IMG/VR virus record: IMGVR_UViG_3300029305_011675
Source: a virus
Taxonomy: Duplodnaviria; Heunggongvirae; Uroviricota; Caudoviricetes
Length of the DNA: 64,000 bases
Strand: one strand, 5' to 3'
Shown: positions 8,324 through 55,983 of the stretch, one piece after another
How the letters are laid out: every line of letters starts with the position of its first letter
Numbering within the stretch: the stretch's first letter is position 1
Position numbers and translations under genes: made by a program
Notes under the pieces: generated by a model
What the model was told of the DNA's origin: nothing
The model's database searches: none
What the model saw: the letters and a program-made list of their open reading frames with translations, nothing else

Positions 8324-8400
8324 CATTAAGGGTTCTGCTTTTTGCAGAACCCTTTTAAAATGCAAAAACAGGAGTTTTCAAACTCCTGTTTTTTATGTTT

Positions 8401-8826
8401 TTACTCTGCGGAAGCAGGACGACCTTCGGCGGGAGCCCAATCGCTTGCACGAATGGTAATGCCGATGCCAGTAGTTCCATCTTCCTTTTCAAATGTACGG
8501 CAGGACAAAGCACCAACAAGGAATACACGAGCAGTCTCTCTATCGCCGAGATACTTGCCGATTCTGTCAGACTTGCTGTCCCAGAAGGTTACATCAACCC
8601 ATACGTTGCCGTATTCGTCAGGTGTAATCGTCTGTCCGAGAACTGCAGAAAGAACATTGGAACGATTTGCGATGCGAGCACGAGCGGTAGTCAACTTTGT
8701 ACCGTTAACTTCCTTCTGCTTAAAGTTAGACAACTTTACGACAGTGGAAACACCGATAAACTCGCCTCCGTTGTAACTGATGCACTTGTTACAGTTCAAA
8801 AATGTGGAATACTTCTTTTCATCCAT
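8401..8826 (-). CDS. Single-stranded DNA-binding (OB-fold) protein-like
   Basis: VWVDVTFWD, VFLVGALSCRTFEKEDG resemble SSB strands; lacks the acidic C-terminal tip. Confidence 0.65.
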   Translation of the reverse strand: MDEKKYSTFLNCNKCISYNGGEFIGVSTVVKLSNFKQKEVNGTKLTTARARIANRSNVLSAVLGQTITPDEYGNVWVDVTFWDSKSDRIGKYLGDRETARVFLVGALSCRTFEKEDGTTGIGITIRASDWAPAEGRPASAE

Positions 8827-8902
8827 GGTAATCAATCTCCTTTGAATTTTTTCTATTTTACACCCGACTTTCGGGTTGTATACATATTATAACAGAAAAA
8901 AA

Positions 8903-8940: not shown

Positions 8941-9057
8941 CCAAATAGGTGTGCACCCACATCTACACCACGGATTCGAACCGAGCCTCCAAAAGTGTGC
9001 TTTGAACCTTTGGTATGCAACCATACACCTACGAGTTGAACGTTTCTTCCTATTTGT
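8941..9057 (-). ncRNA. Degenerate tRNA-like element
   Basis: D-like arm GTGT-ATGGTT-GCAT, stem CCAAA/TTTGG with 15-nt loop, T arm CGG-TTCGAAT-CCG; no normal acceptor stem or CCA, but distal CAAATAGG/CCTATTTG pairing. Confidence 0.45.
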
Positions 9058-9058
9058 C

Positions 9059-9161
9059 TGGTATTGTCAACAGGAATCGAACCTGTGTCTCCGAGAGTAT
9101 CGCTGTTAATGTTTACGATTATACTGCTTCCCTCAGTGTCTTACCACTTGACCATAACAAC
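9059..9161 (-). ncRNA. tRNA-like RNA with 36-nt insert in place of the anticodon loop
   Basis: Acceptor GTTGTTA/TGACAAT-A-CCA, D arm GTC/GAC, stem CTGAG/CTCGG, T arm ACAGG-TTCGATT-CCTGT. Confidence 0.75.
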
Positions 9162-9164
9162 ATA

Positions 9165-9506
9165 TGGTGCCGCTGACGGGACTCGAACCCGTACGCCCTT
9201 ACGGACACAAGATTTTCCTGCTACTTTTGCTTATGATTTCGCAAACCATCATCACTGATGTTGTAGTCTGGAACATGTCTTTACCATGTCTTTGCAGATT
9301 TAGGTAGTAGGTCTATGTTCTCTACACATTTACAACCAAAAGGTTGATTTAGCACGGCGTTCCCATCGAACTCTTCGCCGTTTTAGCCTACTCCACTCAT
9401 AAGGTTTCCCCTATGAGGCTCCATCTCGCATTAAGCGAGACCGACTCGTTAAACAAGTCTTCGATGGACAGAAGTCTTGGGTGTCTGCCAATTCCACCAC
9501 AGCGGC
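9165..9506 (-). tRNA. trnL: tRNA-Leu(UAA) interrupted by a group I intron (exons 9506-9472 and 9216-9165)
   Basis: Joined exons give GCCGCTG..CAAGA-CT-TAA-AA-TCTTG, long variable arm, ACGGG-TTCGAGT-CCCGT, CAGCGGC-A-CCA. Confidence 0.92.
9217..9471 (-). ncRNA. Group I intron (255 nt, no ORF)
   Basis: 5' exon ends in U and intron ends in G; P2 CTCATAGGG-GAAA-CCTTATGAG, P3 AGTAGG/CCTACT, P4 ACGGCG/CGCCGT, P6 CAACC/GGTTG, P7 GAACAT/ATGTTC with R-like GTAGAGAACATA and S-like AAGACATGTTCC. Confidence 0.88.
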
Positions 9507-9514
9507 ATATTCAA

Positions 9515-27540: not shown

Positions 27541-29030
27541 TTTAAAGAGAACCGATTAACTTCGGTTCTCTTTTTTTATGCCTACCACAGGTGAAGTTTG
27601 CTGCCAAGTCCCCACCAATTCTGAAGTTTACAAAAAATCGCAGCATTTCATCTCTGAAAAATTACGCAAGGTCTTTTTTCTAAAACTTTTCACTATTTTT
27701 ACACTATTTTTCACCATTTTGAGCGTGGTAATTATTATTTTTAACTTTAAAACTTCGATTTTCGCTGCCAAGAAAGCTCGACCCACATGTCCTGCGAAGC
27801 TGACAGTTACTCTAAAAACTCTAAAGTTTTTAAAAAATTCCAGAAGGCAGTCTCTCAAAAATTGCGTGTGGTCACTTTTTCAAAACTTTTTGAAGATTTG
27901 ATTTCTTCAGGTAACCCACCCACCCCTCTCTCCACCACCACCCCCGAAAAAAAATAAAATGTGACAAAACATTGAAATATAAATCACCTACGTATGGTGA
28001 ACGAAAAACCATCGAATAAAAGTTTCCTAAAAATCGCCACTCCTTATTTTTCAGAGATGGCGATTTGGTATTTTCGCAAAACTTCACTTGTGACAAAAAT
28101 GTGTCATCTACGTATGAATGCCTATGCAATACTAACCTCAATGAGGCAAAAATACACTTTGTATTTTTCAATTCCAAAATTTTCCCAAATCAACCTCCCA
28201 AAAAGCGAAACCCTCTTTTTATATCGGTATACCGATATATTTTCCCTTCAATTCTCCCATAAAAAACTAATATAAACCGATGTCGTTTTATATCATAACC
28301 CTCTCGCCAAGTAAGACTTACACTTGCCTCGCCCGCCAGCAGGTAAAGCGACGGCGACAAAAAAGTTTTCAAATTAAAGTGCAAATCCATTTTTGAGAGC
28401 ATGCGTGTGGTCATTTTTTGAAAACTTTTCACCCCAGAAGTGCACTCATCTCCAACCGACGGCGGACTCGGCAACCCTCTCTGCAGGTAAACTTTGCAAC
28501 ACTGTATCCCCCCACCCTTCTCACCATAACCCACAAAAACAGCAAAATACACTTTTGGTTCTGCAAAACAGCAAACCATACCTCAAATCTCTATATTCAA
28601 TACAATCAAACACCACCCACCCATCTTTCTTCCACGACCCACCAAAATAGAAAAACACATATTTCTATAACCCATCAAGCAAGTTCGCCAACTCCAATCG
28701 TCTTTCCATACTGAAGGCAAAGCAAACACCCATCCTCCCAACCTCATACTATGTTAACGACACAATTCCGCCCATCCTCTTTCAAGATGCACAAAAGTAT
28801 AAACAATATAAAGCAAACAACAGATAAGAAGAAATAAATACACTAATTAATCACTAATATAAAACAAATAAGAAAACCTCATTATCCCAAATAGAAAAAT
28901 ATCTTAAAATGGATAATAGAGTATATAACCCCAATAAATAACTATGTAATTTTTTTTAATTTCTTTACATACATTTGCAATTTACCTAAAAACGTTCTAT
29001 TATATATCTAATAAGCAACAAAGGAGAAAC
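27541..29030. other. Long non-coding repeat-rich region, candidate replication origin (left part)
   Basis: No credible ORF; C/A-rich plus strand; repeated CTCT(C/G)AAAAAT, CAGGTAA and AAAA(C/G)TTTT motifs. Confidence 0.45.
27863..28429 (+). repeat. 28-bp direct repeat pair (27863-27890, 28402-28429)
   Basis: TGCGTGTGGTCA(C/T)TTTTT(C/G)AAAACTTTT, 26/28 identical. Confidence 0.85.
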
Positions 29031-30251: not shown

Positions 30252-30681
30252 TTAGTAGTGGATACCTTGAAGTTACTTAATGGTAATTTTGAGGTATCCT
30301 TTTTTTATATAGGTATATGTATGTTATATATAGGAATTCGTATAGAGTTTGTTTTTTTGAGGGGTCGTAGACAGGGGTGGTTGGAGGGGTGGGGAGAGAA
30401 CTCATTATGGTGATTACCTGAAAAGTTAATAAAAAAAGAGCATTTCCTGCATCAGGATGAGAGCCCCTGCAGTAACATCTGATAGAAAAGTTTGTAAAAA
30501 CATCGCTGTTCCCATCTTTGAGAGACGGCGAAGGCGAAGCTTTTCAAAACTTTTCGCCCCTGCTTGGATTTACCTGCTCACCACGCAAGTGGACAGCAGA
30601 CTGCAAAAATAAACAGTACAGGTTGACAAAACTGAATTCTTGTGATAAAATAAAATAAAAAACAAAAAGGAGAAATGACCA

Positions 30682-31600: not shown

Positions 31601-31882
31601 ATGCAAAAGAATTGGGTTATCATCATTGAAGAGTGTGACGCCTGCGGAAAGTTAGATAACTACAAAGTTGTCGAAACTCACGAAGGTATGAATCCTGCTC
31701 TGTTGTCTGCCAAGAGACTTGCCGACAGAATGCGCAACTATTATCTGGGAGCATTCGCAGAAGTGTGTGCCGAATTGTGTGGAAATATCGAGTTTTACTA
31801 TGATACGAAGCACGAGAAATTTGAGTACACTTTCAAAGACTGGTGGGGACGGATTCATAAAGTCGTACTTACTCGCGCATAA
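31601..31882 (+). CDS. Hypothetical protein
   Basis: GGAGG RBS, 93 aa. Confidence 0.6.
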   Translation: MQKNWVIIIEECDACGKLDNYKVVETHEGMNPALLSAKRLADRMRNYYLGAFAEVCAELCGNIEFYYDTKHEKFEYTFKDWWGRIHKVVLTRA

Positions 31883-31987
31883 CCGATGCAAATGTATTGG
31901 AGAGGGAAACCTCTCCAATTTTTTCTTGAGAAAATGCAAAAATCAGCATAATCTTATCACAAATCAAATAGAAAGGTATGATTCCAA

Positions 31988-41103: not shown

Positions 41104-42120
41104 TTACCTCACATTCATTATCTCGTAAATCTTTTTGGCAGTATTTCCAATTACTTTATTGTCATAACTATTTCCTTCGGAATTTGTAAAAATAGCAAAT
41201 AAATAGTCATTACCTGTCCAAATAATACCAGCATCATTATGAACTGCATTTGGAGGGAAATTGTCACCAGATTTATGTGAATAATCAACATCCAATGCTT
41301 TTACACCATAAGCAAATTTTGTGTTAGTGCAAGCATTTTTCAGAATTTCCGCACCAATACTACCAGTTTCGAAATATTCATACACTTCTCGCCAAATCTT
41401 AATAAAATCATTGACCTGTGCTTTTGATGCCCAAATTGACCAATTAGGCACTATGGTTGAAGTGCAACCAAGTTCTTTCATCATTGCATTAAAACCATCG
41501 TGTCCAAGATACTCAACTATCATCTCGTAAGCAACATTGTCACTGATTGAAAGACCAAGTGTAATAAGAGTTTCGATAGAATACTTGCTACCAAAAGCAT
41601 TATAACGAATACTGCCAGAACCGCCATGATAATGTCGTTCTTCATAAGTCAAAATTGTATCTTTATCAATTTTCCCCTCGTCAATTTGTTTACAACAGTA
41701 TAGCATAATCGGCATCTTAATAGTGCAAGCAGAGAAATATGTTTGATTTGAATTATAAACCAATGCTTTTTCGCCATCGAGAGAATATGCTGCAACAGAA
41801 ATGTTTTTATTATAATCTTTTAGTATCTTTTCCAACTCTGCTGCTAATTCTTTATCTACATTCCCGTAAATTTTCAATTCTTTATTCACATATTCTAATT
41901 CACCAACAGAGATAAAATCTATTTCTGGTTGAACAACATCTTGATTTTCATCTATTTGATTTTCTGATGTATCTTCGCTTGGTCGTGTAGTCTCCGTTTC
42001 TTGCTTTGTTGTTTCTGCGATGCTTGGTTTTACAACTCCAGTTGGGTTTTCTGTTGCATTGTTGCAGCCTACACAAGTAATAGCAATAACCAATGCCATC
42101 AGAAAATAAATAAATTTCAT
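41104..42120 (-). CDS. Class A beta-lactamase-like serine hydrolase lipoprotein (CxxK variant)
   Basis: Lipobox CVGC; SACTIK, SDN, HKSG, NDAGI. Confidence 0.85.
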   Translation of the reverse strand: MKFIYFLMALVIAITCVGCNNATENPTGVVKPSIAETTKQETETTRPSEDTSENQIDENQDVVQPEIDFISVGELEYVNKELKIYGNVDKELAAELEKILKDYNKNISVAAYSLDGEKALVYNSNQTYFSACTIKMPIMLYCCKQIDEGKIDKDTILTYEERHYHGGSGSIRYNAFGSKYSIETLITLGLSISDNVAYEMIVEYLGHDGFNAMMKELGCTSTIVPNWSIWASKAQVNDFIKIWREVYEYFETGSIGAEILKNACTNTKFAYGVKALDVDYSHKSGDNFPPNAVHNDAGIIWTGNDYLFAIFTNSEGNSYDNKVIGNTAKKIYEIMNVR

Positions 42121-42278
42121 AATCCACCTCTTATTTTTGCGATATTTAGTTGATAATACAATTTTATCATAAAACGATACATCTGTCAACACTTTTTTCA
42201 TTGATTACAACAAAAGGTTGACTTTTTGATGGATTTGTGTTATAATTAAGGAAAGAAAACCAAGAAAGGAAGTAAAAT

Positions 42279-48472: not shown

Positions 48473-48856
48473 TCAATCTTCAATCGGTTCGTGCGGTGCA
48501 ATTTCATACATTGCTTCAAATCGTTCCGCCGACAAAAAACAAATTTTATTGTTTTCATCAACAACCATATAATCACCGACCATCGGATATGCATGTCTAT
48601 GGTCAGACAATCTGATATAACCGATTTTTCTGGCATGCTCACAACCACCGCATTCTTTCATGCAGTGTCCATCATCTTCATAATCGCAACGGAAATCAGA
48701 ATTGCGATATGCTTCTTCTTCTCGCCGTTCATCAATAAAGAGAAGAGAATCAAGGTGATGTGCACAAACGGTCACATAGCCATCGTATTTTTCATCGGTA
48801 ATTCGCTCTGCACGAACAACCTCTGGAATCTTCCTTACATATTTATTCATATCCAT
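48473..48856 (-). CDS. Hypothetical phage-type protein
   Basis: KYVRKIPEVVRAE..VGDYMV..FEAMYE pattern. Confidence 0.65.
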   Translation of the reverse strand: MDMNKYVRKIPEVVRAERITDEKYDGYVTVCAHHLDSLLFIDERREEEAYRNSDFRCDYEDDGHCMKECGGCEHARKIGYIRLSDHRHAYPMVGDYMVVDENNKICFLSAERFEAMYEIAPHEPIED

Positions 48857-49640
48857 TCTCCTTTTTCATAACAGGTCCTTTATCCTTCGCCCACAGTTGC
48901 AGTTCTTTAACGGAAAACCATCCAAAGTTATAAAGATGTTGTTCCATAGGGTTCAACCAAAAAACAACTTCTTTTTTCTTTTCGTCTTTCCATCGAGGAG
49001 TAAGAGCAAAATATCTTTTCCCCGCCTTTTTTAGAAGTTCAAAAATACCAGTATCAACTGCACGAATGGCAAGTCGTTTCTGGTCTTCATCCTTTTCTTT
49101 CATCTCATTTAAAACTTCTTCATCCATACGAGAAAGAATAACGACATTCAAACCGCCACGAGAAAAAGGATTGCTCGTCTTACCAACGAAAAGCAAAGCA
49201 TCGTTGGTCTTAATTGCATTCAAAAGCTCCTTACCGAATTCAATATACTTTTCGTCAAAAAGCAACTGAAAACCGCCCTCATCCCAGAAAGACATAAACC
49301 CATACTTTTCGAGGGTCATTTCACCAGGATACATGTGAAGACCGTCCATAATTTTTCTTAAAGTAATCTTATCCTTATCCATCAAATAATTGATATTTTC
49401 GGAATAGATGTAAAAATATTTCTTTTTCTTAATAGTTACCTGTCCGCCATCAACACTTTCGCCCTTTGTGATTTTACGACGGTCAACTCCAACGGTAATA
49501 CTATTATTGGCGACACCAAGGCGAGTACACATTCTCTGAATACCCCACTCGTGTTCGGCACAAAAATCAGCACCAAGATTAACACCTACAAACTCGTTAT
49601 TCTTATTGTAAATAATGTTTCCACCATAACTTTGTCTCAT
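48843..49640 (-). CDS. Hypothetical protein
   Basis: 265-aa ORF with RBS and promoter. Confidence 0.75.
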   Translation of the reverse strand: MRQSYGGNIIYNKNNEFVGVNLGADFCAEHEWGIQRMCTRLGVANNSITVGVDRRKITKGESVDGGQVTIKKKKYFYIYSENINYLMDKDKITLRKIMDGLHMYPGEMTLEKYGFMSFWDEGGFQLLFDEKYIEFGKELLNAIKTNDALLFVGKTSNPFSRGGLNVVILSRMDEEVLNEMKEKDEDQKRLAIRAVDTGIFELLKKAGKRYFALTPRWKDEKKKEVVFWLNPMEQHLYNFGWFSVKELQLWAKDKGPVMKKENGYE

Positions 49641-49780
49641 TTTTCATTCTCCTTTTAGTGTTTTTCTTTGATATCATTATACCACAAATCAATCCTAATG
49701 TCAACTACTTTTCGCAACAAAAAACCGTTGACTTCTAATGTTTTTTGTGGTATAATATAAGAAAAGAAGGGAGAATACTT

Positions 49781-50332
49781 ATGGAAAAAATAACAAAAAT
49801 GGACAAATGCAGATTTTGTTTTCCAGATATCAAAAGAGTTGGTAATGAAACAAAACTGTTCTATAATTGTTCTAAAAAAGGCGAATTCAATGATGAAGGT
49901 TTTTGCGAAGGATGTGAAAGTTTTTCATCTCGATATATTGAATACCCAATTGAGGTTTCTGCAATCAATACGGAACACTTCAATGCAGACGGTCTTTATT
50001 CAAAACGTATTGGCGAAATCGTAAAAATCCGCCCATGTGGTAAAGAATATGAGGGGAAAACTTTTCTCGGAATTTTGCTTGGAGATTTAATTGTTTCTCC
50101 GCACATTTCACATGACAAGAAAACCAACGAATTAAACATCGGTGCGATGACAAATCCTGCAATTTTTGTTCCCGAATTAAAGAAAATCATTTATGGTTAC
50201 GAATCGTGGTGGGGAACAATCACAAATAAAGATGATTTGTCAGATTTGAATATTTCCGACGATGATATTGAAAACACTTGGTATGTACAATTACTAAAAT
50301 CAATGATTAACACAGAAGAAAAGCAGTCGTAA
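49781..50332 (+). CDS. Hypothetical protein
   Basis: ATG at 49781 after GGGAG; Cys-rich N-terminus. Confidence 0.75.
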   Translation: MEKITKMDKCRFCFPDIKRVGNETKLFYNCSKKGEFNDEGFCEGCESFSSRYIEYPIEVSAINTEHFNADGLYSKRIGEIVKIRPCGKEYEGKTFLGILLGDLIVSPHISHDKKTNELNIGAMTNPAIFVPELKKIIYGYESWWGTITNKDDLSDLNISDDDIENTWYVQLLKSMINTEEKQS

Positions 50333-50420
50333 GACTGCTTTTCCTAAAGTTTATTTGACATTGTTGCGAAATTATATTACATTTTTGATATAATTTTTAT
50401 GCAAAGGAGTGTCGTAAACT

Positions 50421-50597
50421 ATGTTAATGAAAATTAATAAAGACGACTGTGCCGCTTGTGGAATCTGCAAAGAAGCATGTCCTAATGCAGCAATTGATTT
50501 TGTAGATGGAGAATACACCATTAACCCAGAAATATGTATTGGTTGTGGCATTTGTGCAGAATTCTGCCCTGCGGATGCTGTTTTTGAGGTAGAATAA
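50421..50597 (+). CDS. 2[4Fe-4S] ferredoxin (58 aa, not in ORF track)
   Basis: CAACGICKEACP and CIGCGICAEFCP; AGGAG RBS. Confidence 0.9.
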   Translation: MLMKINKDDCAACGICKEACPNAAIDFVDGEYTINPEICIGCGICAEFCPADAVFEVE

Positions 50598-50598
50598 A

Positions 50599-51684
50599 AT
50601 GTTGAAAAATCATCTTAATTCAATAATTAAAGGTGATACAATAGAAACATTAAAGCAATTCCCAGACAATTCAATTGATGTTATATTCGCTGACCCACCA
50701 TATTTCATGCAAACATCGGGAAAAACTTTACAAAGAGCAGATGGTACAGGCGAATTTAAGGGGTGCAATGATGACTGGGATAAATATGAAGATTATCGTG
50801 AATACGATAATTTTTCAACCAATTGGTTAAGAGAATGCAAAAGAATCTTAAAACCGAACGGAACAATTTGGGTCATCGGTTCTTTTCAAAATATTTATCG
50901 AATTGGTTACATAATGCAAAATCTTGGATTTTGGATTTTAAATGACATCGTGTGGTCAAAAACAAACCCAACTCCCAATATGGCAGGAACAAGGTTTTGC
51001 AATGCACACGAAACATTGCTTTGGTGTGCAAAATCTGAAAACAGTAAGTTCACTTTTAATTATAAAACAATGAAACATCTTAATGGTGGCAAGCAAGACA
51101 AAAGTATTTGGACTCTTGGTATTTGCCAAGGTTATGAACGCTTAAAAGACGAAACAGGAACAAAACTTCACACGACACAAAAACCAGAAAGTCTTTTAGA
51201 AAAGGTTATTTTGTCTTCTACAAAACCCAATGATATTATCTTGGACCCGTTTTTTGGAACGGGCACAACAGGTGCCATTGCTAAAAAATACGGAAGGAAC
51301 TTTATTGGCATCGAAAGAGAAGATAAATACATACAGGGAGCAAACGAACGCATTAAAAACCAAAAAATTTGTTCCAACGAAATTTCAAATTTGTCCTTGG
51401 AAACAAAACCACCAAAAGTATCACTAATACAACTCATTGATGCTGGTTATATTTCTGAACACGAAATGTTATACGATAAAAACGGCAAAGAAATTGCTTT
51501 AATAGCAAAAAACAACAAAGTATTATACCAAAACGAAGAATATTCCATACACAAATTGTCAGCAAAATTATTAAACAAAAGCAATAATAACGGTTGGTCA
51601 TACTTTTTTATTAAAAGGAATGATGAACTTATTTGCATCGACGATTTAAGATATAAATTTCAAAATAAGGAGTGTATTTTATGA
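50599..51684 (+). CDS. Beta-class N6-adenine DNA methyltransferase, CcrM/M.HinfI-like
   Basis: FADPPY, WILNDIVWSKTNP, HTTQKP, LDPFFGTGTT, C-terminal SIHK..NGWSYF domain. Confidence 0.92.
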   Translation: MLKNHLNSIIKGDTIETLKQFPDNSIDVIFADPPYFMQTSGKTLQRADGTGEFKGCNDDWDKYEDYREYDNFSTNWLRECKRILKPNGTIWVIGSFQNIYRIGYIMQNLGFWILNDIVWSKTNPTPNMAGTRFCNAHETLLWCAKSENSKFTFNYKTMKHLNGGKQDKSIWTLGICQGYERLKDETGTKLHTTQKPESLLEKVILSSTKPNDIILDPFFGTGTTGAIAKKYGRNFIGIEREDKYIQGANERIKNQKICSNEISNLSLETKPPKVSLIQLIDAGYISEHEMLYDKNGKEIALIAKNNKVLYQNEEYSIHKLSAKLLNKSNNNGWSYFFIKRNDELICIDDLRYKFQNKECIL

Positions 51685-51872
51685 AACAGAGATTTTTAGG
51701 TTTGTATGATTTGGCATTTGATGAAAACGGGAACATCAAAGCATGCGGAAGAGAGGTTTGTAAAGAGCTAATTGTTCTCGCAAACCAAATCGAAAAAAAT
51801 GTAAAGCACGGAGACGAAACAACTGGTATGATGGATGTTGATACTATCAAGTCTCTGCGAGCAACTCTATAA
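51681..51872 (+). CDS. Small hypothetical protein
   Basis: AGGAG RBS, ATGA overlap. Confidence 0.55.
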   Translation: MKQRFLGLYDLAFDENGNIKACGREVCKELIVLANQIEKNVKHGDETTGMMDVDTIKSLRATL

Positions 51873-51893
51873 CAAAAAAGGAGAAAAAACCTT

Positions 51894-52640
51894 ATGAAGA
51901 AAATTATTGCACTTTTATTGGCATTACTCTGTATCGTTTCAGTAATGTCTGGATGCTCTGCACTTGAAGATTTTGCAGAGGGTTTCAAAGACGGTGTTAA
52001 AGAAGAAATTTCCACCCCTGTAGATGATGATACAGAAAACAAAAACGACAATGAAACATCTACTCCTGCCGTAGATGATAAAGAAGAAGAAAAAGAAGAA
52101 AAAGAATTTGCCTTTGGCGTCACAAATGGAAAACAATATAAAAGCGACTTTATTGGCATTTCTTGTACAATCCCAGAAGATTGGGACTTTTTTGATGAAG
52201 CATCAATCAAAGAACTCAATAACATTGCACTCGATGCAATGGATGATGATATCGCAGAAAAACTTAAAAATGCAAATGTAATTTATGATATGTATGCATC
52301 CAATGCAAGCACTGCTGATAATGTAAATATCAATTTGGAGAAAATTCCATCTTATATGGTTTCTAACCTTAATGTTGAAGAAGTTTTAAAGAAGCAATTC
52401 ACCACAATTGAACAATCTTTGGAAAGCGCAGGCGCTTCTGTCGATGAAATCAAATACATGGAAATCGAAGTTGATGGACAGAAATTCGATGGAGTTTCTA
52501 TCGCTTCAACAGTAAGTGGAACAAAATTGTATCAAAAAATGATTGCCTTCAACAGAGGTAATTACCTTGTGTATATTACAGCAACTTCTTTTGATGCAAA
52601 CGGTGCTGATGAAATTTTGTCCTTCTTTAATTTTGACTAA
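51894..52640 (+). CDS. Lipoprotein
   Basis: Lipobox MSGC, acidic linker. Confidence 0.8.
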   Translation: MKKIIALLLALLCIVSVMSGCSALEDFAEGFKDGVKEEISTPVDDDTENKNDNETSTPAVDDKEEEKEEKEFAFGVTNGKQYKSDFIGISCTIPEDWDFFDEASIKELNNIALDAMDDDIAEKLKNANVIYDMYASNASTADNVNINLEKIPSYMVSNLNVEEVLKKQFTTIEQSLESAGASVDEIKYMEIEVDGQKFDGVSIASTVSGTKLYQKMIAFNRGNYLVYITATSFDANGADEILSFFNFD

Positions 52641-52762
52641 TAGCGAAATCCTTGTTGTTAATTCAACAAGGATTTTTTGCATTTTTATAAAAAAGTAGTT
52701 GACAAATGCTTTGAGTTGTGATATAATAAGTTTACACTAAAGAAAGGAGCGAAGGAATATCT

Positions 52763-53122
52763 ATGAGATATACAATTGGTGCAAGAGTTGTAGAAAATGA
52801 CGGTAAAATTAGTGACGGTATTTTCGCTTATGGCGAGTACGGTCTGGCATGTATTTTAGTGTCTGACGACCTTGGCGATAGAAAATATCGTATTCCTGTT
52901 TTTACCGACCTCGAAGAGGCAAAAGATTTCGCACGGCATATGTGTATCATCCACAGAGATGAATTTCATAAGCGAGCACAAAGACGCAATCTCGATATTT
53001 CCCAGTTCCGTTTCTTTGTGGTAAAAGTAGATTCAAGTAAGTTTAAGAGAAAACTTGGAGAACCAGATGGTATCACTCGTGAATCCAAGTACAAGTCTCG
53101 CAAATATTACTATGTAACTTAA
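52763..53122 (+). CDS. Hypothetical protein
   Basis: TTGACA..TATAAT promoter, RBS. Confidence 0.7.
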   Translation: MRYTIGARVVENDGKISDGIFAYGEYGLACILVSDDLGDRKYRIPVFTDLEEAKDFARHMCIIHRDEFHKRAQRRNLDISQFRFFVVKVDSSKFKRKLGEPDGITRESKYKSRKYYYVT

Positions 53123-53132
53123 TTTGTTATAT

Positions 53133-53426
53133 GGGCGGCACCATGGGAAAGGTGCGACTCCCTCGACGGGAAAGTTTGCTTCGGCAAAATGGCGCTCGGT
53201 GTCTTTCTAGACGACACTGCCGTTATATGTCGCTTGGAGAAGGGGTTTGAGAGTGGGTTATGTAGGGATAACTAATGCTCTTGAATGAGATATCCTCTGT
53301 CGGTTAGGATTTGATGGATGAGTCCCATTTCTTAAATTCTCTACCCTATATAGAGAGCAGTATGGGATAGTTCGGAGATGATAAATCGGAATGTCTGTTG
53401 TGGTTCGAATCCGCTTCCGCCTACCA
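53133..53426 (+). ncRNA. 294-nt structured RNA with tRNA-like termini (tmRNA-like or novel)
   Basis: GGGCGG/CCGCCT-A-CCA acceptor, CACC/GGTG arm, GTGG-TTCGAAT-CCGC T arm, many internal helices, terminator right after CCA. Confidence 0.7.
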
Positions 53427-53652
53427 ATAAAAAAAGCACTTGTGTTTTTCACAAGTGCTTTTATTTTTATTTTATTTGTCGCAGCAGGAACAACGAATTT
53501 CAAGGAATGGAGCAAGTTCTTCCATCACAAGTTTTGCTTTGCTGTCGAAGTCATCATTACCACTCAAATCAGTCCAAGTCTCCCACCAGAAATCTACCCT
53601 CATTGTCATGACACATTCTGTACAACCATAATCGACATATACAGAATACTCA

Positions 53653-55201
53653 GTGAACCTCACACGACTAAAGTCGCGTGCTTCTCTGCTTGTTATTTAC
53701 AGAGACTCTCTATCTACAGATACGACACAAAATTCAGGAGAAAAGAACCGAAGTTCTTAAACCCGCATTAAGGTTAATTAGTGTAGACAAAGTGCATTGG
53801 GTTCTTTTCGCAATAGAAGGAACTTGTGCCTCCAGTTGCGACCTTACCGTTGCCGATAAGGGTTTAAGTATTTCTCTTATAAAATATCGTGCTCCGATAT
53901 TATAAGATGCATTTAAATCACTGTGGTATTGTTTACCATTGCCGAGAGTGCAGATACTATAATTCTCTTTCTCTCGTTTTACTTCACCACTGCCATCGAA
54001 TGACAGTTTGCTTGTATTCCAAGCACAGATATGCGAAATGCGAATACCCATTCGATGTGCTTTGTTGGTAACAATACCCTGAATATAGTTTTTTCTCCAC
54101 ATTGTAAGTTTTTGTTTCTTACTGCCTTTAACCTTACCATTGGTATCAAGGTGTTCAAAAACGATACAGTGTACAGCATTTTGAACAGCATAATCTACAA
54201 TTGCTTGTGCAATTTTTATAGAATGCTGTTCATTACAGTTCTTGGCATAACTCCACAGTTTAGAAACAGATTGATGTTTCTTCTGTTTCTTTTTAATCTT
54301 ATTCAGTGTATGATACAGACGGTCTTTATCACTCTTGAAGTTAATAAACTTCCTATTGAGGACAGTTCCGTCTGCAGTCATTACCGAACAAACTGCATCG
54401 TTATTGACGCCAAGGTCAACTGCTAATACTTTTTGGTTTTCTGCTTTTACTTCATTCAGTTTGACCTTTTCGGTAAAAGCAAATCTCAAATAGTATTTGT
54501 TATATCTTCTCTCCAAAATTGGAGCAGACATCTCTTTATTTTGACAATGCTTCTGAATATACTTAATATCCGTAGCACGAAGATGTACAGGATACCACAC
54601 CCAGTCGTTGTTAATAAATAACTTCAATCTTACGATATTCGGATTATCTGTCTCTTCGTAAGTATTGTCTCTATAAAAAATTGGGCAATTATAATGTTTG
54701 GTCTGCAATCTTGGTGGTTTTCCAACCTTGCCATTGTTTTCCCAATTTTTATAGTTACTTCTATAAGAAGATACAATGCCGATTGCATCAGCAATCACTC
54801 CTCTTCGAAAGTAACAAGGCATTTTGTAAAACAATTGGTCGAACTCTGGATATTTTGCTACATTGTCTTTTGTTGTATGAATAAGATGTTCAACCAAATT
54901 ATTTTTGCGATTGCCTTTTAGTGCAGAAATACTATCCCACTCATTATTTATAATGGAAATTAAGAAAGTAAGTGCTACTCTGTATTTATTTACAGTTGGT
55001 TTTAACATTTTGTTAATACCAACAATTTGAACTTTATAACTCGTGGTTATATTCATTCTTTGATAAGCACTTCCTTTCTATGAGGTGATGCATATATTAT
55101 ATCATATTTTACTATAAATTGCAACCCTTTTTGTTTAAGAATAATAAGAAACATCGCCTTATTCACGACTAAAGTCACGAGAATGGGCGATGTTATTTTT
55201 A
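53653..55201 (-). mobile_element. IS200/IS605-family (IS1341-type, tnpB-only) element
   Basis: Related subterminal hairpins CACGACTAAAGTC(G/A)CG at 53663 and 55164; right end ...GGTTCAC; TTGAC next to left end; no tnpA. Confidence 0.8.
53734..55056 (-). CDS. tnpB: TnpB RNA-guided endonuclease
   Basis: RuvC motifs AVDLGVN, IVFEHL, NTSK, SDLNASYNIGAR. Confidence 0.92.
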   Translation of the reverse strand: MNITTSYKVQIVGINKMLKPTVNKYRVALTFLISIINNEWDSISALKGNRKNNLVEHLIHTTKDNVAKYPEFDQLFYKMPCYFRRGVIADAIGIVSSYRSNYKNWENNGKVGKPPRLQTKHYNCPIFYRDNTYEETDNPNIVRLKLFINNDWVWYPVHLRATDIKYIQKHCQNKEMSAPILERRYNKYYLRFAFTEKVKLNEVKAENQKVLAVDLGVNNDAVCSVMTADGTVLNRKFINFKSDKDRLYHTLNKIKKKQKKHQSVSKLWSYAKNCNEQHSIKIAQAIVDYAVQNAVHCIVFEHLDTNGKVKGSKKQKLTMWRKNYIQGIVTNKAHRMGIRISHICAWNTSKLSFDGSGEVKREKENYSICTLGNGKQYHSDLNASYNIGARYFIREILKPLSATVRSQLEAQVPSIAKRTQCTLSTLINLNAGLRTSVLFS

Positions 55202-55260: not shown

Positions 55261-55983
55261 TCAACCAAAATAATTCCATACACGAACATAAAATGCCTCA
55301 AAATTATTATTTCCTCGCCAAATAACATCTCCAAGATAACGATAAACTTCTGGTGCTTCAGTTTTTAGTTTATCGTTATATAAGAAATAATCTTTGTAGC
55401 AACAAGCAAAAAATTCGCTTGAACTACTTAAATGATAATGCTCGTCAGAAAAAGTATCTTCTGGATTGTATCCTTGATTGCTGTTAAAAATCTTCTTAAA
55501 AGATGAAGATTTGGACAATATGCCTTTTTCCCAGTCTTCATAGTGCCCAAATTCATGAACAAAATCAGATAGCAAGTATTCAGGTTGGTTGTTGTTTAAG
55601 AATAAATAAATAATTCTTAAATTATGTTCTGTGTTACCGCCAACTTTATAATCAACAACCTTTTCAATTTCTTGAATATATGGCGGTTTTTCAGAACTAA
55701 TAATGATTTTCCATCCCTCATCATTAAAACGTTTTGCAGTTTCGTCAGGAAGTAAATCAAAAAAATCATGCACCATAGGAACTAATGCGAGAAAATTTTC
55801 ATTTCCAAGGTCTTTTTCAGATGTATAAATTAAATCATCATACTTATGAAAATAAGTAAGTGTATTTTTCTGGTCTTCTTTTTCATATCTATCAAAATTA
55901 AAACCAAGAACATGATAACTTATACCAAAAATAACAATAACACCGATAAGTAAAATTATTAAAAGTTTTTTCAATTCTGTCAC
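55261..55983 (-). CDS. Membrane-anchored zinc metallopeptidase (ATLF-like)
   Basis: N-terminal TM, HEFGH, SEFFA, LKTEAPEVY. Confidence 0.75.
   Translation of the reverse strand: MTELKKLLIILLIGVIVIFGISYHVLGFNFDRYEKEDQKNTLTYFHKYDDLIYTSEKDLGNENFLALVPMVHDFFDLLPDETAKRFNDEGWKIIISSEKPPYIQEIEKVVDYKVGGNTEHNLRIIYLFLNNNQPEYLLSDFVHEFGHYEDWEKGILSKSSSFKKIFNSNQGYNPEDTFSDEHYHLSSSSEFFACCYKDYFLYNDKLKTEAPEVYRYLGDVIWRGNNNFEAFYVRVWNYFG

What the first reader, a model, noticed from the sequence alone, without database searches (positions are those of the whole stretch)
53133..53426. 294-nt structured RNA closed by a tRNA-like domain but lacking the tmRNA G3-U70 pair
Seen: the ends form an acceptor stem with ACCA, a D-like hairpin and a T arm, and ~230 nt replace the anticodon arm. 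Internal helices include TTTGC-TTCG-GCAAA, GTGTC/GACAC, TTTGAGAGTGGG/CCCATTTCTTAAA, ATCCT/AGGAT, CTCTA/TAGAG and a possible pseudoknot TATGTAGGG/CCCTATATA. A terminator follows directly. Established: tmRNA needs G3-U70 and a tag ORF usually ending in Ala-Ala. Here the G-U is at 1-72 and I see no convincing tag. Inference: a divergent tmRNA or a new large ncRNA class, continuing the expanded-anticodon theme.
Basis: partly seen in the sequence, partly recalled or inferred. Interest (0 to 1): 0.7.

Follow-up and report, generated by a model that had tools for sequence, protein, structure and literature searches.

The report
Orphan tRNA-capped RNA, not tmRNA
A giant phage-like element from ruminant gut bacteria carries a very well conserved 294-base non-coding RNA whose two ends fold into the top half of a tRNA; every test I could run says it is neither a tmRNA nor an intron-split tRNA, and what it does is still unknown.

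Summary
The RNA gene is real. It fills the whole gap between a 119-aa ORF and a terminator, behind a perfect sigma-70 promoter. At 48% G+C it is the second most GC-rich 294-nt stretch of the 64-kb window.

In the only reachable relative (L001) it differs at 1 of 294 bases. The promoter spacer region differs by 9% and the downstream DNA by 24%.

The ends form a 6-bp acceptor stem (G1·U72, G3-C70), a D-like hairpin with a GGG loop, a 4-bp T arm with a UUCGAAU loop, and A73-CCA. U is at -1, so it looks like an RNase P substrate.

It is not a recognisable tmRNA:
- There is no G3·U70 pair.
- Rfam gives nothing at E<=10.
- ARAGORN calls it only at thresholds that give 41-107 other calls across the same window.
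- No SmpB is found in the window.

It is not an interrupted tRNA either. ARAGORN's intron mode finds three interrupted tRNAs elsewhere in this window but not this one, and deleting any internal segment gives no cloverleaf.

The internal helices are unproven. The whole-molecule fold is no more stable than shuffles, and no covariation data could be fetched.

Best reading: a stable tRNA-top-half mimic carrying a roughly 240-nt body, possibly working with the co-transcribed basic protein. Earlier notes of this scan describe similar tRNA-ended phage RNAs on other DNA; I did not check them.

The parts
52699..52727 (+). Promoter of the cassette: TTGACA, 17 nt, TG-TATAAT (12 of 12)
   Evidence: Between the window and L001, five substitutions fall in the spacer and none in either hexamer. 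A terminator of the upstream unit lies at 52645-52676.
52763..53122 (+). 119-aa basic protein (pI 9.4; C-terminal half pI 10.3), co-transcribed just upstream of the RNA
   Evidence: There are 10 close homologues and 95 clusters at 50% identity. No Pfam or PHROG family matches. The AlphaFold model is confident (pLDDT 87) but has no clear fold match. pI is.
53133..53426 (+). The 294-nt RNA gene (G+1 to the encoded CCA); U at -1
   Evidence: It has 48% G+C against a window mean of 34.5%. It differs from L001 at 1 of 294 positions.
53133..53138 (+). Acceptor stem, 5' strand (G1-G6)
   Evidence: Pairs with 53417-53422. It is the best partner within 700 nt upstream.
53139..53154 (+). D-like hairpin: 4-bp stem and 8-nt loop AUGGGAAA, joined to the acceptor with no 8-9 linker
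   Evidence: z -1.9 taken alone.
53154..53233 (+). Predicted module 1: a cloverleaf-shaped junction closed by GCGAC/GUCGC. It has three arms, including a C(UUCG)G tetraloop hairpin at 53175-53188 and a 7-bp hairpin at 53197-53219.
   Evidence: MFE -28.1 kcal/mol, z -2.4, 3 of 200 shuffles as stable. The borders were chosen after folding. It is a prediction only.
53245..53286 (+). Predicted module 2: a long hairpin (10 bp plus 6 bp) with apical loop GUAGGG
   Evidence: z -4.6, 0 of 200 shuffles, borders chosen after folding. The only substitution (53248 U>C in L001) turns a G·U pair into G-C here.
53322..53368 (+). Predicted module 4: a hairpin with UCCCAU/AUGGGA at the base, a 7-bp upper stem and loop CCCUAUA
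   Evidence: z -2.7, 3 of 200 shuffles, borders chosen after folding.
53400..53414 (+). T arm: a 4-bp stem (one G·U) and the canonical 7-nt loop UUCGAAU
   Evidence: It is the only T-loop-like site in the window outside the 9-10.5 kb tRNA cluster on a plausible gene.
53417..53426 (+). Acceptor 3' strand CCGCCU, discriminator A73 and encoded CCA
53432..53462 (.). Bidirectional intrinsic terminator: 13-bp stem with T runs on both sides
   Evidence: In L001 the stem is kept while the loop and the tails differ.

Best explanation
I read this as a stand-alone stable non-coding RNA of a giant phage-like element. It has a tRNA top half (acceptor stem, T arm, D-like hairpin making the elbow, A73-CCA) and about 240 nt of folded RNA where the anticodon arm should be.

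Proposed life cycle:
1. It is transcribed with the 119-aa gene from one sigma-70 promoter. The sequence layout shows this.
2. RNase P cuts it at U(-1)/G(+1). This is inferred from the consensus substrate features.
3. It is trimmed back to the encoded CCA after termination (inferred).
4. It then acts in trans as a tRNA mimic. The cap gives stability and access to proteins that read the acceptor/T-arm/elbow, and the conserved body carries the specific activity. The body may bind the co-transcribed basic protein (all inferred).

It cannot read codons. It lacks alanine identity, so it does not work as a standard tmRNA.
For: Gene layout:
- The order is promoter, ORF, 10-nt gap, RNA, terminator, with no room for another gene.
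- The GC island coincides with the proposed borders and is the second highest of 64 kb.

Conservation against L001:
- The RNA differs at 1 of 294 positions (0.34%).
- The adjacent ORF differs by 1.7%.
- The promoter intergenic region differs by 9% (Fisher p 9e-6).
- The terminator and downstream DNA differ by 24% (p 2e-20).
- The whole body is conserved, not only the cap.

tRNA-elbow features:
- The T loop is UUCGAAU.
- The D-like loop holds GGG.
- The ends are U-1, G+1 and A73-CCA.

Tests that exclude a decoding tRNA:
- Rfam gives no tRNA hit.
- ARAGORN with introns allowed finds nothing here.
- None of the single-deletion variants is called a tRNA, against 323 calls for the interrupted tRNA-Leu control.

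The TnpB-like gene next door is an insertion absent from L001, so it is not a partner.
Against: - There is no expression data.
- Only two nearly identical copies could be compared, so no helix has covariation support.
- The full-length MFE is no better than shuffles (z -0.25). The module z-scores were taken on borders chosen after folding.
- Low divergence may partly reflect a recently exchanged block, since the neighbouring ORFs are also only 1.7-3% diverged.
- The choice of 5' acceptor strand is not significant on its own.
- The link to the 119-aa protein rests on one operon only.
- No partner or target was identified.
Confidence: 0.5

Rival explanations
1. It is a highly divergent tmRNA-type rescue RNA. 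It would be charged with some amino acid, enter stalled ribosomes and add a tag encoded in its body.
For: - The overall plan and size match: a tRNA-like cap, a large body and 294 nt.
- Phage tmRNAs exist (PMC4131195, PMC7162821).
- Open frames lie where a tag would be. One is frame 3, positions 57/60-143, 27-28 codons, preceded by an A-rich stretch after a hairpin. Another is frame 1, 100-156, preceded by GUC as in E. coli.
- The single natural substitution is synonymous in frame 3.
- The tmRNA hallmark UCGACGGGA is shared with E. coli ssrA within the first 45 nt (p about 0.008, chosen after looking).
- ARAGORN at 70-75% of threshold calls exactly 53133-53426.
- Earlier notes of this scan say megaphage tmRNAs escape standard detectors (untested here).
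Against: - G3·U70 is absent in both copies (G3-C70; the only wobble is G1·U72).
- Rfam RF00023 gives no hit even at E<=10 in 306 nt.
- At the ARAGORN thresholds that call it, 41 and 107 calls appear in the window; at 80% it is not among the 16.
- It has a true D stem, unlike tmRNA.
- No convincing P2 or PK1 was found.
- The candidate tags end in RDN or ALE, and an open frame of 28 codons is not unusual.
- No SmpB is found in the window, and the neighbouring protein gave no SmpB match in fold searches.
- Overall similarity to ssrA is at chance (p 0.33).
Confidence: 0.1
2. It is a cis-acting 3' element of the 119-aa mRNA. A tRNA-like processing or stability signal (a 't-element') would be cut by RNase P to set the fate of the message, with no trans function.
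For: - It is co-transcribed and starts 10 nt after the stop codon.
- It has consensus RNase P determinants.
- Another note of this scan proposed tRNA-shaped punctuation in a crAss-like phage (untested).
Against: A processing signal needs only the cap, yet the 240-nt body is just as conserved (1 change in 294 nt) and GC-rich. No gene follows on this strand to be separated from the ORF.
Confidence: 0.15
3. It is a tRNA precursor with one or more very large unconventional introns, like the interrupted tRNAs of this element and of Lak megaphages, spliced by element-encoded enzymes.
For: - The same window holds tRNAs with 29-36-nt, 75-nt (tRNA-shaped) and 255-nt inserts.
- Lak megaphages have 'enigmatic' tRNA introns (PMC6784885).
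- At 80% of ARAGORN's threshold, a tRNA-Leu(UAA)-like body with a 38-nt insert can be drawn over 53298-53426.
Against: - ARAGORN's intron mode at default finds the three neighbours but not this one.
- Removing any single internal segment never yields a tRNA call, against 323 calls for the control.
- The low-threshold models have 4-of-7 acceptor pairs or mismatched D and anticodon stems.
- There is no group I intron hit and no similarity to the 255-nt insert.
- The D hairpin abuts the acceptor with no 8-9 linker.
Confidence: 0.08
4. It is a decaying remnant of a tRNA or tmRNA gene in an intergenic region, with no function.
For: It matches no family, the cap has mismatches (C7·U66, U49·U65), and the MFE is not above shuffles.
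Against: It is the most conserved segment of the 4.9 kb shared with L001, while both non-coding flanks diverge by 9-25%. The GC island, promoter and terminator are intact.
Confidence: 0.07

Closest known systems
tmRNA (SsrA, Rfam RF00023), including phage-borne copies and the TLD-only tmRNA of mycobacteriophage DS6A (PMC4131195)
   Same: The 5' and 3' ends form an acceptor stem and T arm with an encoded CCA, and a large body replaces the anticodon arm. The size is similar and it is carried by a large phage-like element. A UCGACGGGA motif lies near the 5' end.
   Different: - There is no G3·U70, so no alanine identity.
- It has a real D stem.
- Covariance-model and ARAGORN searches find nothing at meaningful thresholds.
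- No supported P2, pseudoknots or tag were found.
- No SmpB is seen in the window.
Stable tRNA-like RNAs of phage tRNA regions, such as T4 RNAC and RNAD ('biological roles are unknown', PMC3014915)
   Same: These are phage-encoded, tRNA-related, non-decoding stable RNAs of unknown function that would be processed like tRNAs.
   Different: This one is at least twice as long. It stands alone behind a protein gene, more than 40 kb from the element's tRNA cluster.
Intron-containing tRNAs of Lak megaphages and of this element (PMC6784885; window 9059-10483)
   Same: The genomic setting is the same, and a large insertion sits where the anticodon loop would be.
   Different: Those keep canonical D and anticodon arms and are found by ARAGORN or Rfam once introns are allowed. 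This RNA is not.
YrlA-type bacterial and phage Y RNAs
   Same: A larger RNA that contains a tRNA-like module and works with a dedicated protein.
   Different: From my own knowledge, the tRNA-like module of YrlA is internal and the RNA ends form the Ro-binding stem; here the RNA ends themselves are the acceptor. Rfam returned no Y RNA hit. No Rsr/Ro-like gene lies next to it.

Membership tests
tmRNA (SsrA) | tRNA-like domain: acceptor stem formed by the two RNA ends, T arm and 3' CCA | tested here: met
   a 6-bp acceptor, a T arm with loop UUCGAAU, and A73-CCA.
tmRNA (SsrA) | G3·U70 alanine identity pair | tested here: not met
   The pair is G3-C70 in the window and in L001. The only wobble is G1·U72. 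No alternative register gives G3·U70.
tmRNA (SsrA) | Match to tmRNA covariance models or the ARAGORN tmRNA model | tested here: not met
   No RF00023 or related hit at E<=10. ARAGORN finds none at default or 80%. It calls the RNA only at 75% and 70%, together with 40 and 106 other calls in 64 kb.
tmRNA (SsrA) | Tag reading frame with a resume codon after PK1, ending in a degron | tested here: inconclusive
   Open frames of 18-28 codons exist. They have unusual C-termini, are not longer than chance allows, and have only one informative substitution.
tmRNA (SsrA) | SmpB partner | tested here: inconclusive
   E. coli SmpB finds nothing in the window by tblastn or phmmer. The neighbouring 119-aa protein gave no SmpB match by Foldseek or VIA-align. 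The rest of the genome and the host are not available.
Intron-containing tRNA | A canonical cloverleaf (D arm, anticodon arm with a 7-nt loop) once the insert is removed | tested here: not met
   ARAGORN -i finds none at default, while three neighbours are found. There are 0 calls among all single-deletion variants against 323 for the control.
Group I intron | Conserved P3-P8 core (Rfam RF00028) | tested here: not met
   No hit at E<=10. Rfam also misses the 255-nt insert at 9165-9506, so sensitivity in this element is limited.
tRNA (RF00005) | Covariance-model match | tested here: not met
   k-mer sharing and Smith-Waterman scores against E. coli 16S and 23S are at shuffle level.
TnpB omega-RNA | Lies on the tnpB strand at the 3' end of the gene and travels with it | tested here: not met
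   It is on the opposite strand, beyond a terminator. The RNA is intact in L001, which lacks the tnpB insertion.

The most novel reading that the evidence does not exclude
The two-gene cassette (119-aa basic protein of unknown fold plus the 294-nt RNA) encodes a new ribonucleoprotein. In it a non-alanine, tRNA-top-half RNA is brought to the ribosome or another tRNA-handling machine by its own protein. That would make it an analogue of tmRNA-SmpB that arose separately in giant gut mobile elements.
Probability: 0.06. Interest if true: 0.85.

Novelty: new variant of a known kind. Interest (0 to 1): 0.45.

Why it matters
Giant phages and phage-like elements carry many tRNA-shaped RNAs that cannot decode, and none has an assigned function. 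This one is unusually large. It has its own promoter-ORF-RNA-terminator cassette and is conserved as tightly as any protein-coding sequence around it. That makes it a tractable case for asking what such tRNA mimics do: serve as decoys for tRNA-targeting defences, titrate SmpB, RNase P or EF-Tu, or act as a new RNP. It also shows that a tmRNA-like outline alone is not evidence for tmRNA.

Tried and rejected
**Homologue search**
- No relative was found by blastn or tblastn against phages and plasmids.
- Exact and degenerate DNA patterns in viral contigs and genome contigs gave nothing. The four genome hits are chance; the one I read lies in a coding region.
- Protein-guided locus searches with the ORF and four sub-alignments also gave nothing.
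- The single metagenome scan gave only L001, which is 92% identical.
- Two huge-phage records (LR756500.1, LR756511.1) hold neither the RNA nor the ORF.

**Ideas tested and dropped**
- The PTC/16S-mimic idea, which I first formed by eye, is at chance level.
- There is no similarity to the 255-nt insert of the tRNA at 9165-9506.
- There are no antisense targets or extra copies in the window.
- The kissing loop GUAGGG/CCCUAU is not above chance.
- A 38-aa Arg-rich ORF from the AUG at position 11 is unlikely to be real, because its stop codon is lost in L001.
- A type III toxin-antitoxin is unlikely: there are no repeats and the RNA lies after the ORF.

**The 119-aa protein**
- No Pfam, PHROG or Atlas lead was found.
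- Foldseek found nothing. The best VIA-align Z was 4.9, below the noise level stated by the tool.
- The 1531-aa hit P0012 is a low-complexity artefact.
- There is no paralogue in the window.

Full report
**What is there**

The stretch 53133-53426 lies on the + strand between the stop codon of a 119-aa ORF (52763-53122) and a 13-bp bidirectional intrinsic terminator (53432-53462). A perfect TTGACA-17-TG-TATAAT promoter sits at 52699-52727, just after the terminator of the upstream unit. The unit is therefore promoter, small ORF, 10-nt gap, 294 non-coding nt, terminator. No plausible ORF covers the 294 nt; the frames that overlap it run through the terminator.

**The tRNA-like cap**

- The 5' GGGCGG pairs with CCGCCU just before A-CCA. 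This gives six contiguous pairs, G1·U72 outermost and G3-C70, followed by a C·U mismatch.
- Directly after it comes a hairpin with stem CACC/GGUG and loop AUGGGAAA.
- Before the 3' strand lies a T arm, GUGG-UUCGAAU-CCGC.
- The T loop is canonical and the D-like loop offers the GG needed for a tRNA elbow.
- The base at -1 is U, +1 is G, and A73-CCA is encoded. From established knowledge, these are the preferred determinants of bacterial RNase P.
- One caveat applies. A 6-of-7 partner for a 7-nt strand is expected a few times per 300 nt, and 53133 is only the best of three such sites. The assignment rests on context more than on statistics.

**Is it a real RNA gene?**

Two independent signals say yes.

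- *G+C content.* The stretch has 48% G+C against a window mean of 34.5% (+3.2 SD). It is the second highest 294-nt stretch of the 64 kb, on a par with the tRNA cluster. The rise begins within a few bases of 53133.
- *Conservation.* The only DNA relative I could reach is a metagenome contig (L001). It aligns over 48760-53648 at 92% identity. Within that alignment the differences are as follows:

| Segment | Differences | Divergence | Fisher p vs RNA |
|---|---|---|---|
| RNA | 1 of 294 | 0.34% | - |
| Adjacent ORF (119 aa) | 6 of 360 | 1.7% | 0.14 |
| 248-aa ORF | 22 of 747 | 2.95% | 0.008 |
| Promoter intergenic region | 11 of 122 | 9% | 9e-6 |
| Terminator plus downstream | 53 of 222 | 24% | 2e-20 |

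In the promoter region the substitutions fall in the spacer and not in the hexamers. In the terminator they fall in the loop and tails. The whole 294 nt are constrained, not only the cap. With only two sequences, a recently exchanged block could contribute to this pattern.

**Internal structure**

- The full-length minimum free energy is no lower than that of shuffles (z -0.25).
- A fold constrained to keep the cap predicts four modules:
  - a cloverleaf-shaped module at 53154-53233 that contains a C(UUCG)G hairpin;
  - a long hairpin at 53245-53286;
  - a weak hairpin;
  - a hairpin at 53322-53368.
- Folded alone, three of these modules have z of -2.4, -4.6 and -2.7. Their borders were chosen after folding, so these values are generous.
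- The single natural substitution (53248 U>C) turns a G·U pair into G-C in the long hairpin.
- No helix inside the body can be called established.

**Not a tmRNA by any test available**

- G3·U70 is absent in both copies.
- Rfam gives no tmRNA, tRNA, intron, RNase P or Y RNA hit, even at E<=10 in a 306-nt search.
- ARAGORN's tmRNA mode finds nothing at default or 80% of threshold. At 75% and 70% it does call exactly 53133-53426 with a 20-residue tag, but it then makes 41 and 107 calls in the window.
- Open frames of 18-28 codons lie where a tag could be, and the one substitution is synonymous in one of them. Neither point exceeds chance, and the C-termini (RDN, ALE) are unlike known tags.
- E. 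coli SmpB finds nothing in the window.
- Similarity to E. coli ssrA is at chance overall (p 0.33). A shared UCGACGGGA within the first 45 nt (p about 0.008, chosen after looking) is a weak hint of tmRNA ancestry and no more.

**Not an interrupted tRNA**

The same window holds a remarkable tRNA cluster (minus strand, about 8950-10550) with inserts of 29-36, 75 and 255 nt. ARAGORN's intron mode recovers three of these at default settings but nothing at the target. I also deleted every possible single internal segment that leaves 70-97 nt. No variant of the target is called a tRNA, whereas 323 variants of the tRNA with the 255-nt insert are. The models that appear at lowered thresholds have poor acceptor, D or anticodon stems.

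**Neighbours**

- The convergent 440-aa gene (53734-55056) has weak OrfB_IS605 and TNB-domain hits, so it is TnpB-like. It lies in a segment (53648-55201) with no counterpart in L001, so it is an IS insertion and not a partner.
- The co-transcribed 119-aa protein is basic (pI 9.4; C-terminal half pI 10.3). It belongs to a family of about 95 clusters at 50% identity, nearly all 120-145 aa and found only in metagenomes.
- This protein has no Pfam or PHROG family. Its structure model is confident (pLDDT 87) but has no clear match among solved structures, including SmpB.
- Whether its relatives are also followed by this RNA is the key open question.

**Most likely mechanism**

- Shown: the RNA gene is conserved and GC-rich, has a tRNA-like cap, and sits in a self-contained operon.
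- Inferred:
  - RNase P cuts at 53132/53133 and the 3' end is trimmed to CCA, giving a stable 294-nt RNA.
  - Its cap mimics the acceptor/T-arm/elbow of tRNA.
  - Its equally conserved body provides the specific function, possibly as an RNP with the basic protein.
- Plausible targets are factors that read the tRNA top half: RNase P, CCA-adding enzyme, EF-Tu, a synthetase, SmpB or tRNA-directed defence nucleases.
- One precedent is that TLD-only molecules inhibit tmRNA, perhaps by titrating SmpB, as cited in PMC4131195.
- I put this reading at 0.5. The rivals are a cis-acting processing element (0.15), a non-alanine tmRNA analogue (0.10), a tRNA with unconventional introns (0.08) and a remnant (0.07).

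**Comparison and novelty**

- It works most like the non-decoding tRNA-like stable RNAs of phages. T4 RNAC and RNAD are examples, with roles still unknown (PMC3014915). It is outlined like tmRNA.
- It is a member of no catalogued family.
- Earlier notes of this scan report similar CCA-ended RNAs with a tRNA shell and a foreign middle in other giant phages. I could not compare sequences, so these are leads only.
- I class it as a new variant of a known kind, of moderate interest. It would rank much higher if the protein-RNA cassette proves to be a conserved RNP.

Noticed in passing
window 53648-55201 (ORF 53734-55056, minus strand): A TnpB-like gene (weak OrfB_IS605 and Cas12f1-like TNB hits) sits in a ~1.55-kb segment. 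L001 holds an unrelated ~0.49 kb there. It looks like a recent IS insertion just past the RNA's terminator.
   Followed up: partly
window 8950-10550, minus strand: A tRNA operon lies behind a perfect TTGACA-17-TATAAT promoter. ARAGORN's intron mode calls interrupted tRNAs at 9059-9161 (about 29-36-nt insert), 9165-9506 (255-nt insert, no Rfam group I hit) and 10333-10483 (a 75-nt insert that is itself tRNA-Lys). An HNH-like ORF lies at 9515-10045.
   Followed up: partly
window about 10483 and 10325 (minus strand): By eye, the outer tRNA that hosts the nested tRNA also closes its acceptor stem with G1·U72, like the target RNA. This may be a shared quirk of the element's RNAs.
   Followed up: no
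window 28299-28592, 30332-30625, 31623-31916; also 8404-8697: These are further GC-rich islands (44-51% against a 34.5% mean). The first three lie in gaps between the long ORFs of the pilin-like gene region and could hold other structured RNAs. The last is the GC maximum of the window and lies inside ORF 8395-8892.
   Followed up: no
window 55261-55983 (minus strand): A 240-aa protein has a C-terminal match to the anthrax lethal factor-type (ATLF) / M90 zinc metallopeptidase domains (Pfam E 7.5e-7).
   Followed up: no
window 41104-42201 (minus strand): A class A beta-lactamase-family protein (PF13354, E 7.5e-38) is encoded on this mobile element.
   Followed up: no
window 59143-60366 (minus strand): A WGR-PARP gene. 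Its nearest phage relative by tblastn is the 462-kb uncultured huge phage LR756500.1 (38% identity), followed by Cellulophaga phages (32%).
   Followed up: partly
window 52699-52727 compared with L001: Between the two variants, five substitutions fall inside the 17-nt promoter spacer while both hexamers are unchanged. This is a neat sign that the predicted promoter is used.
   Followed up: yes
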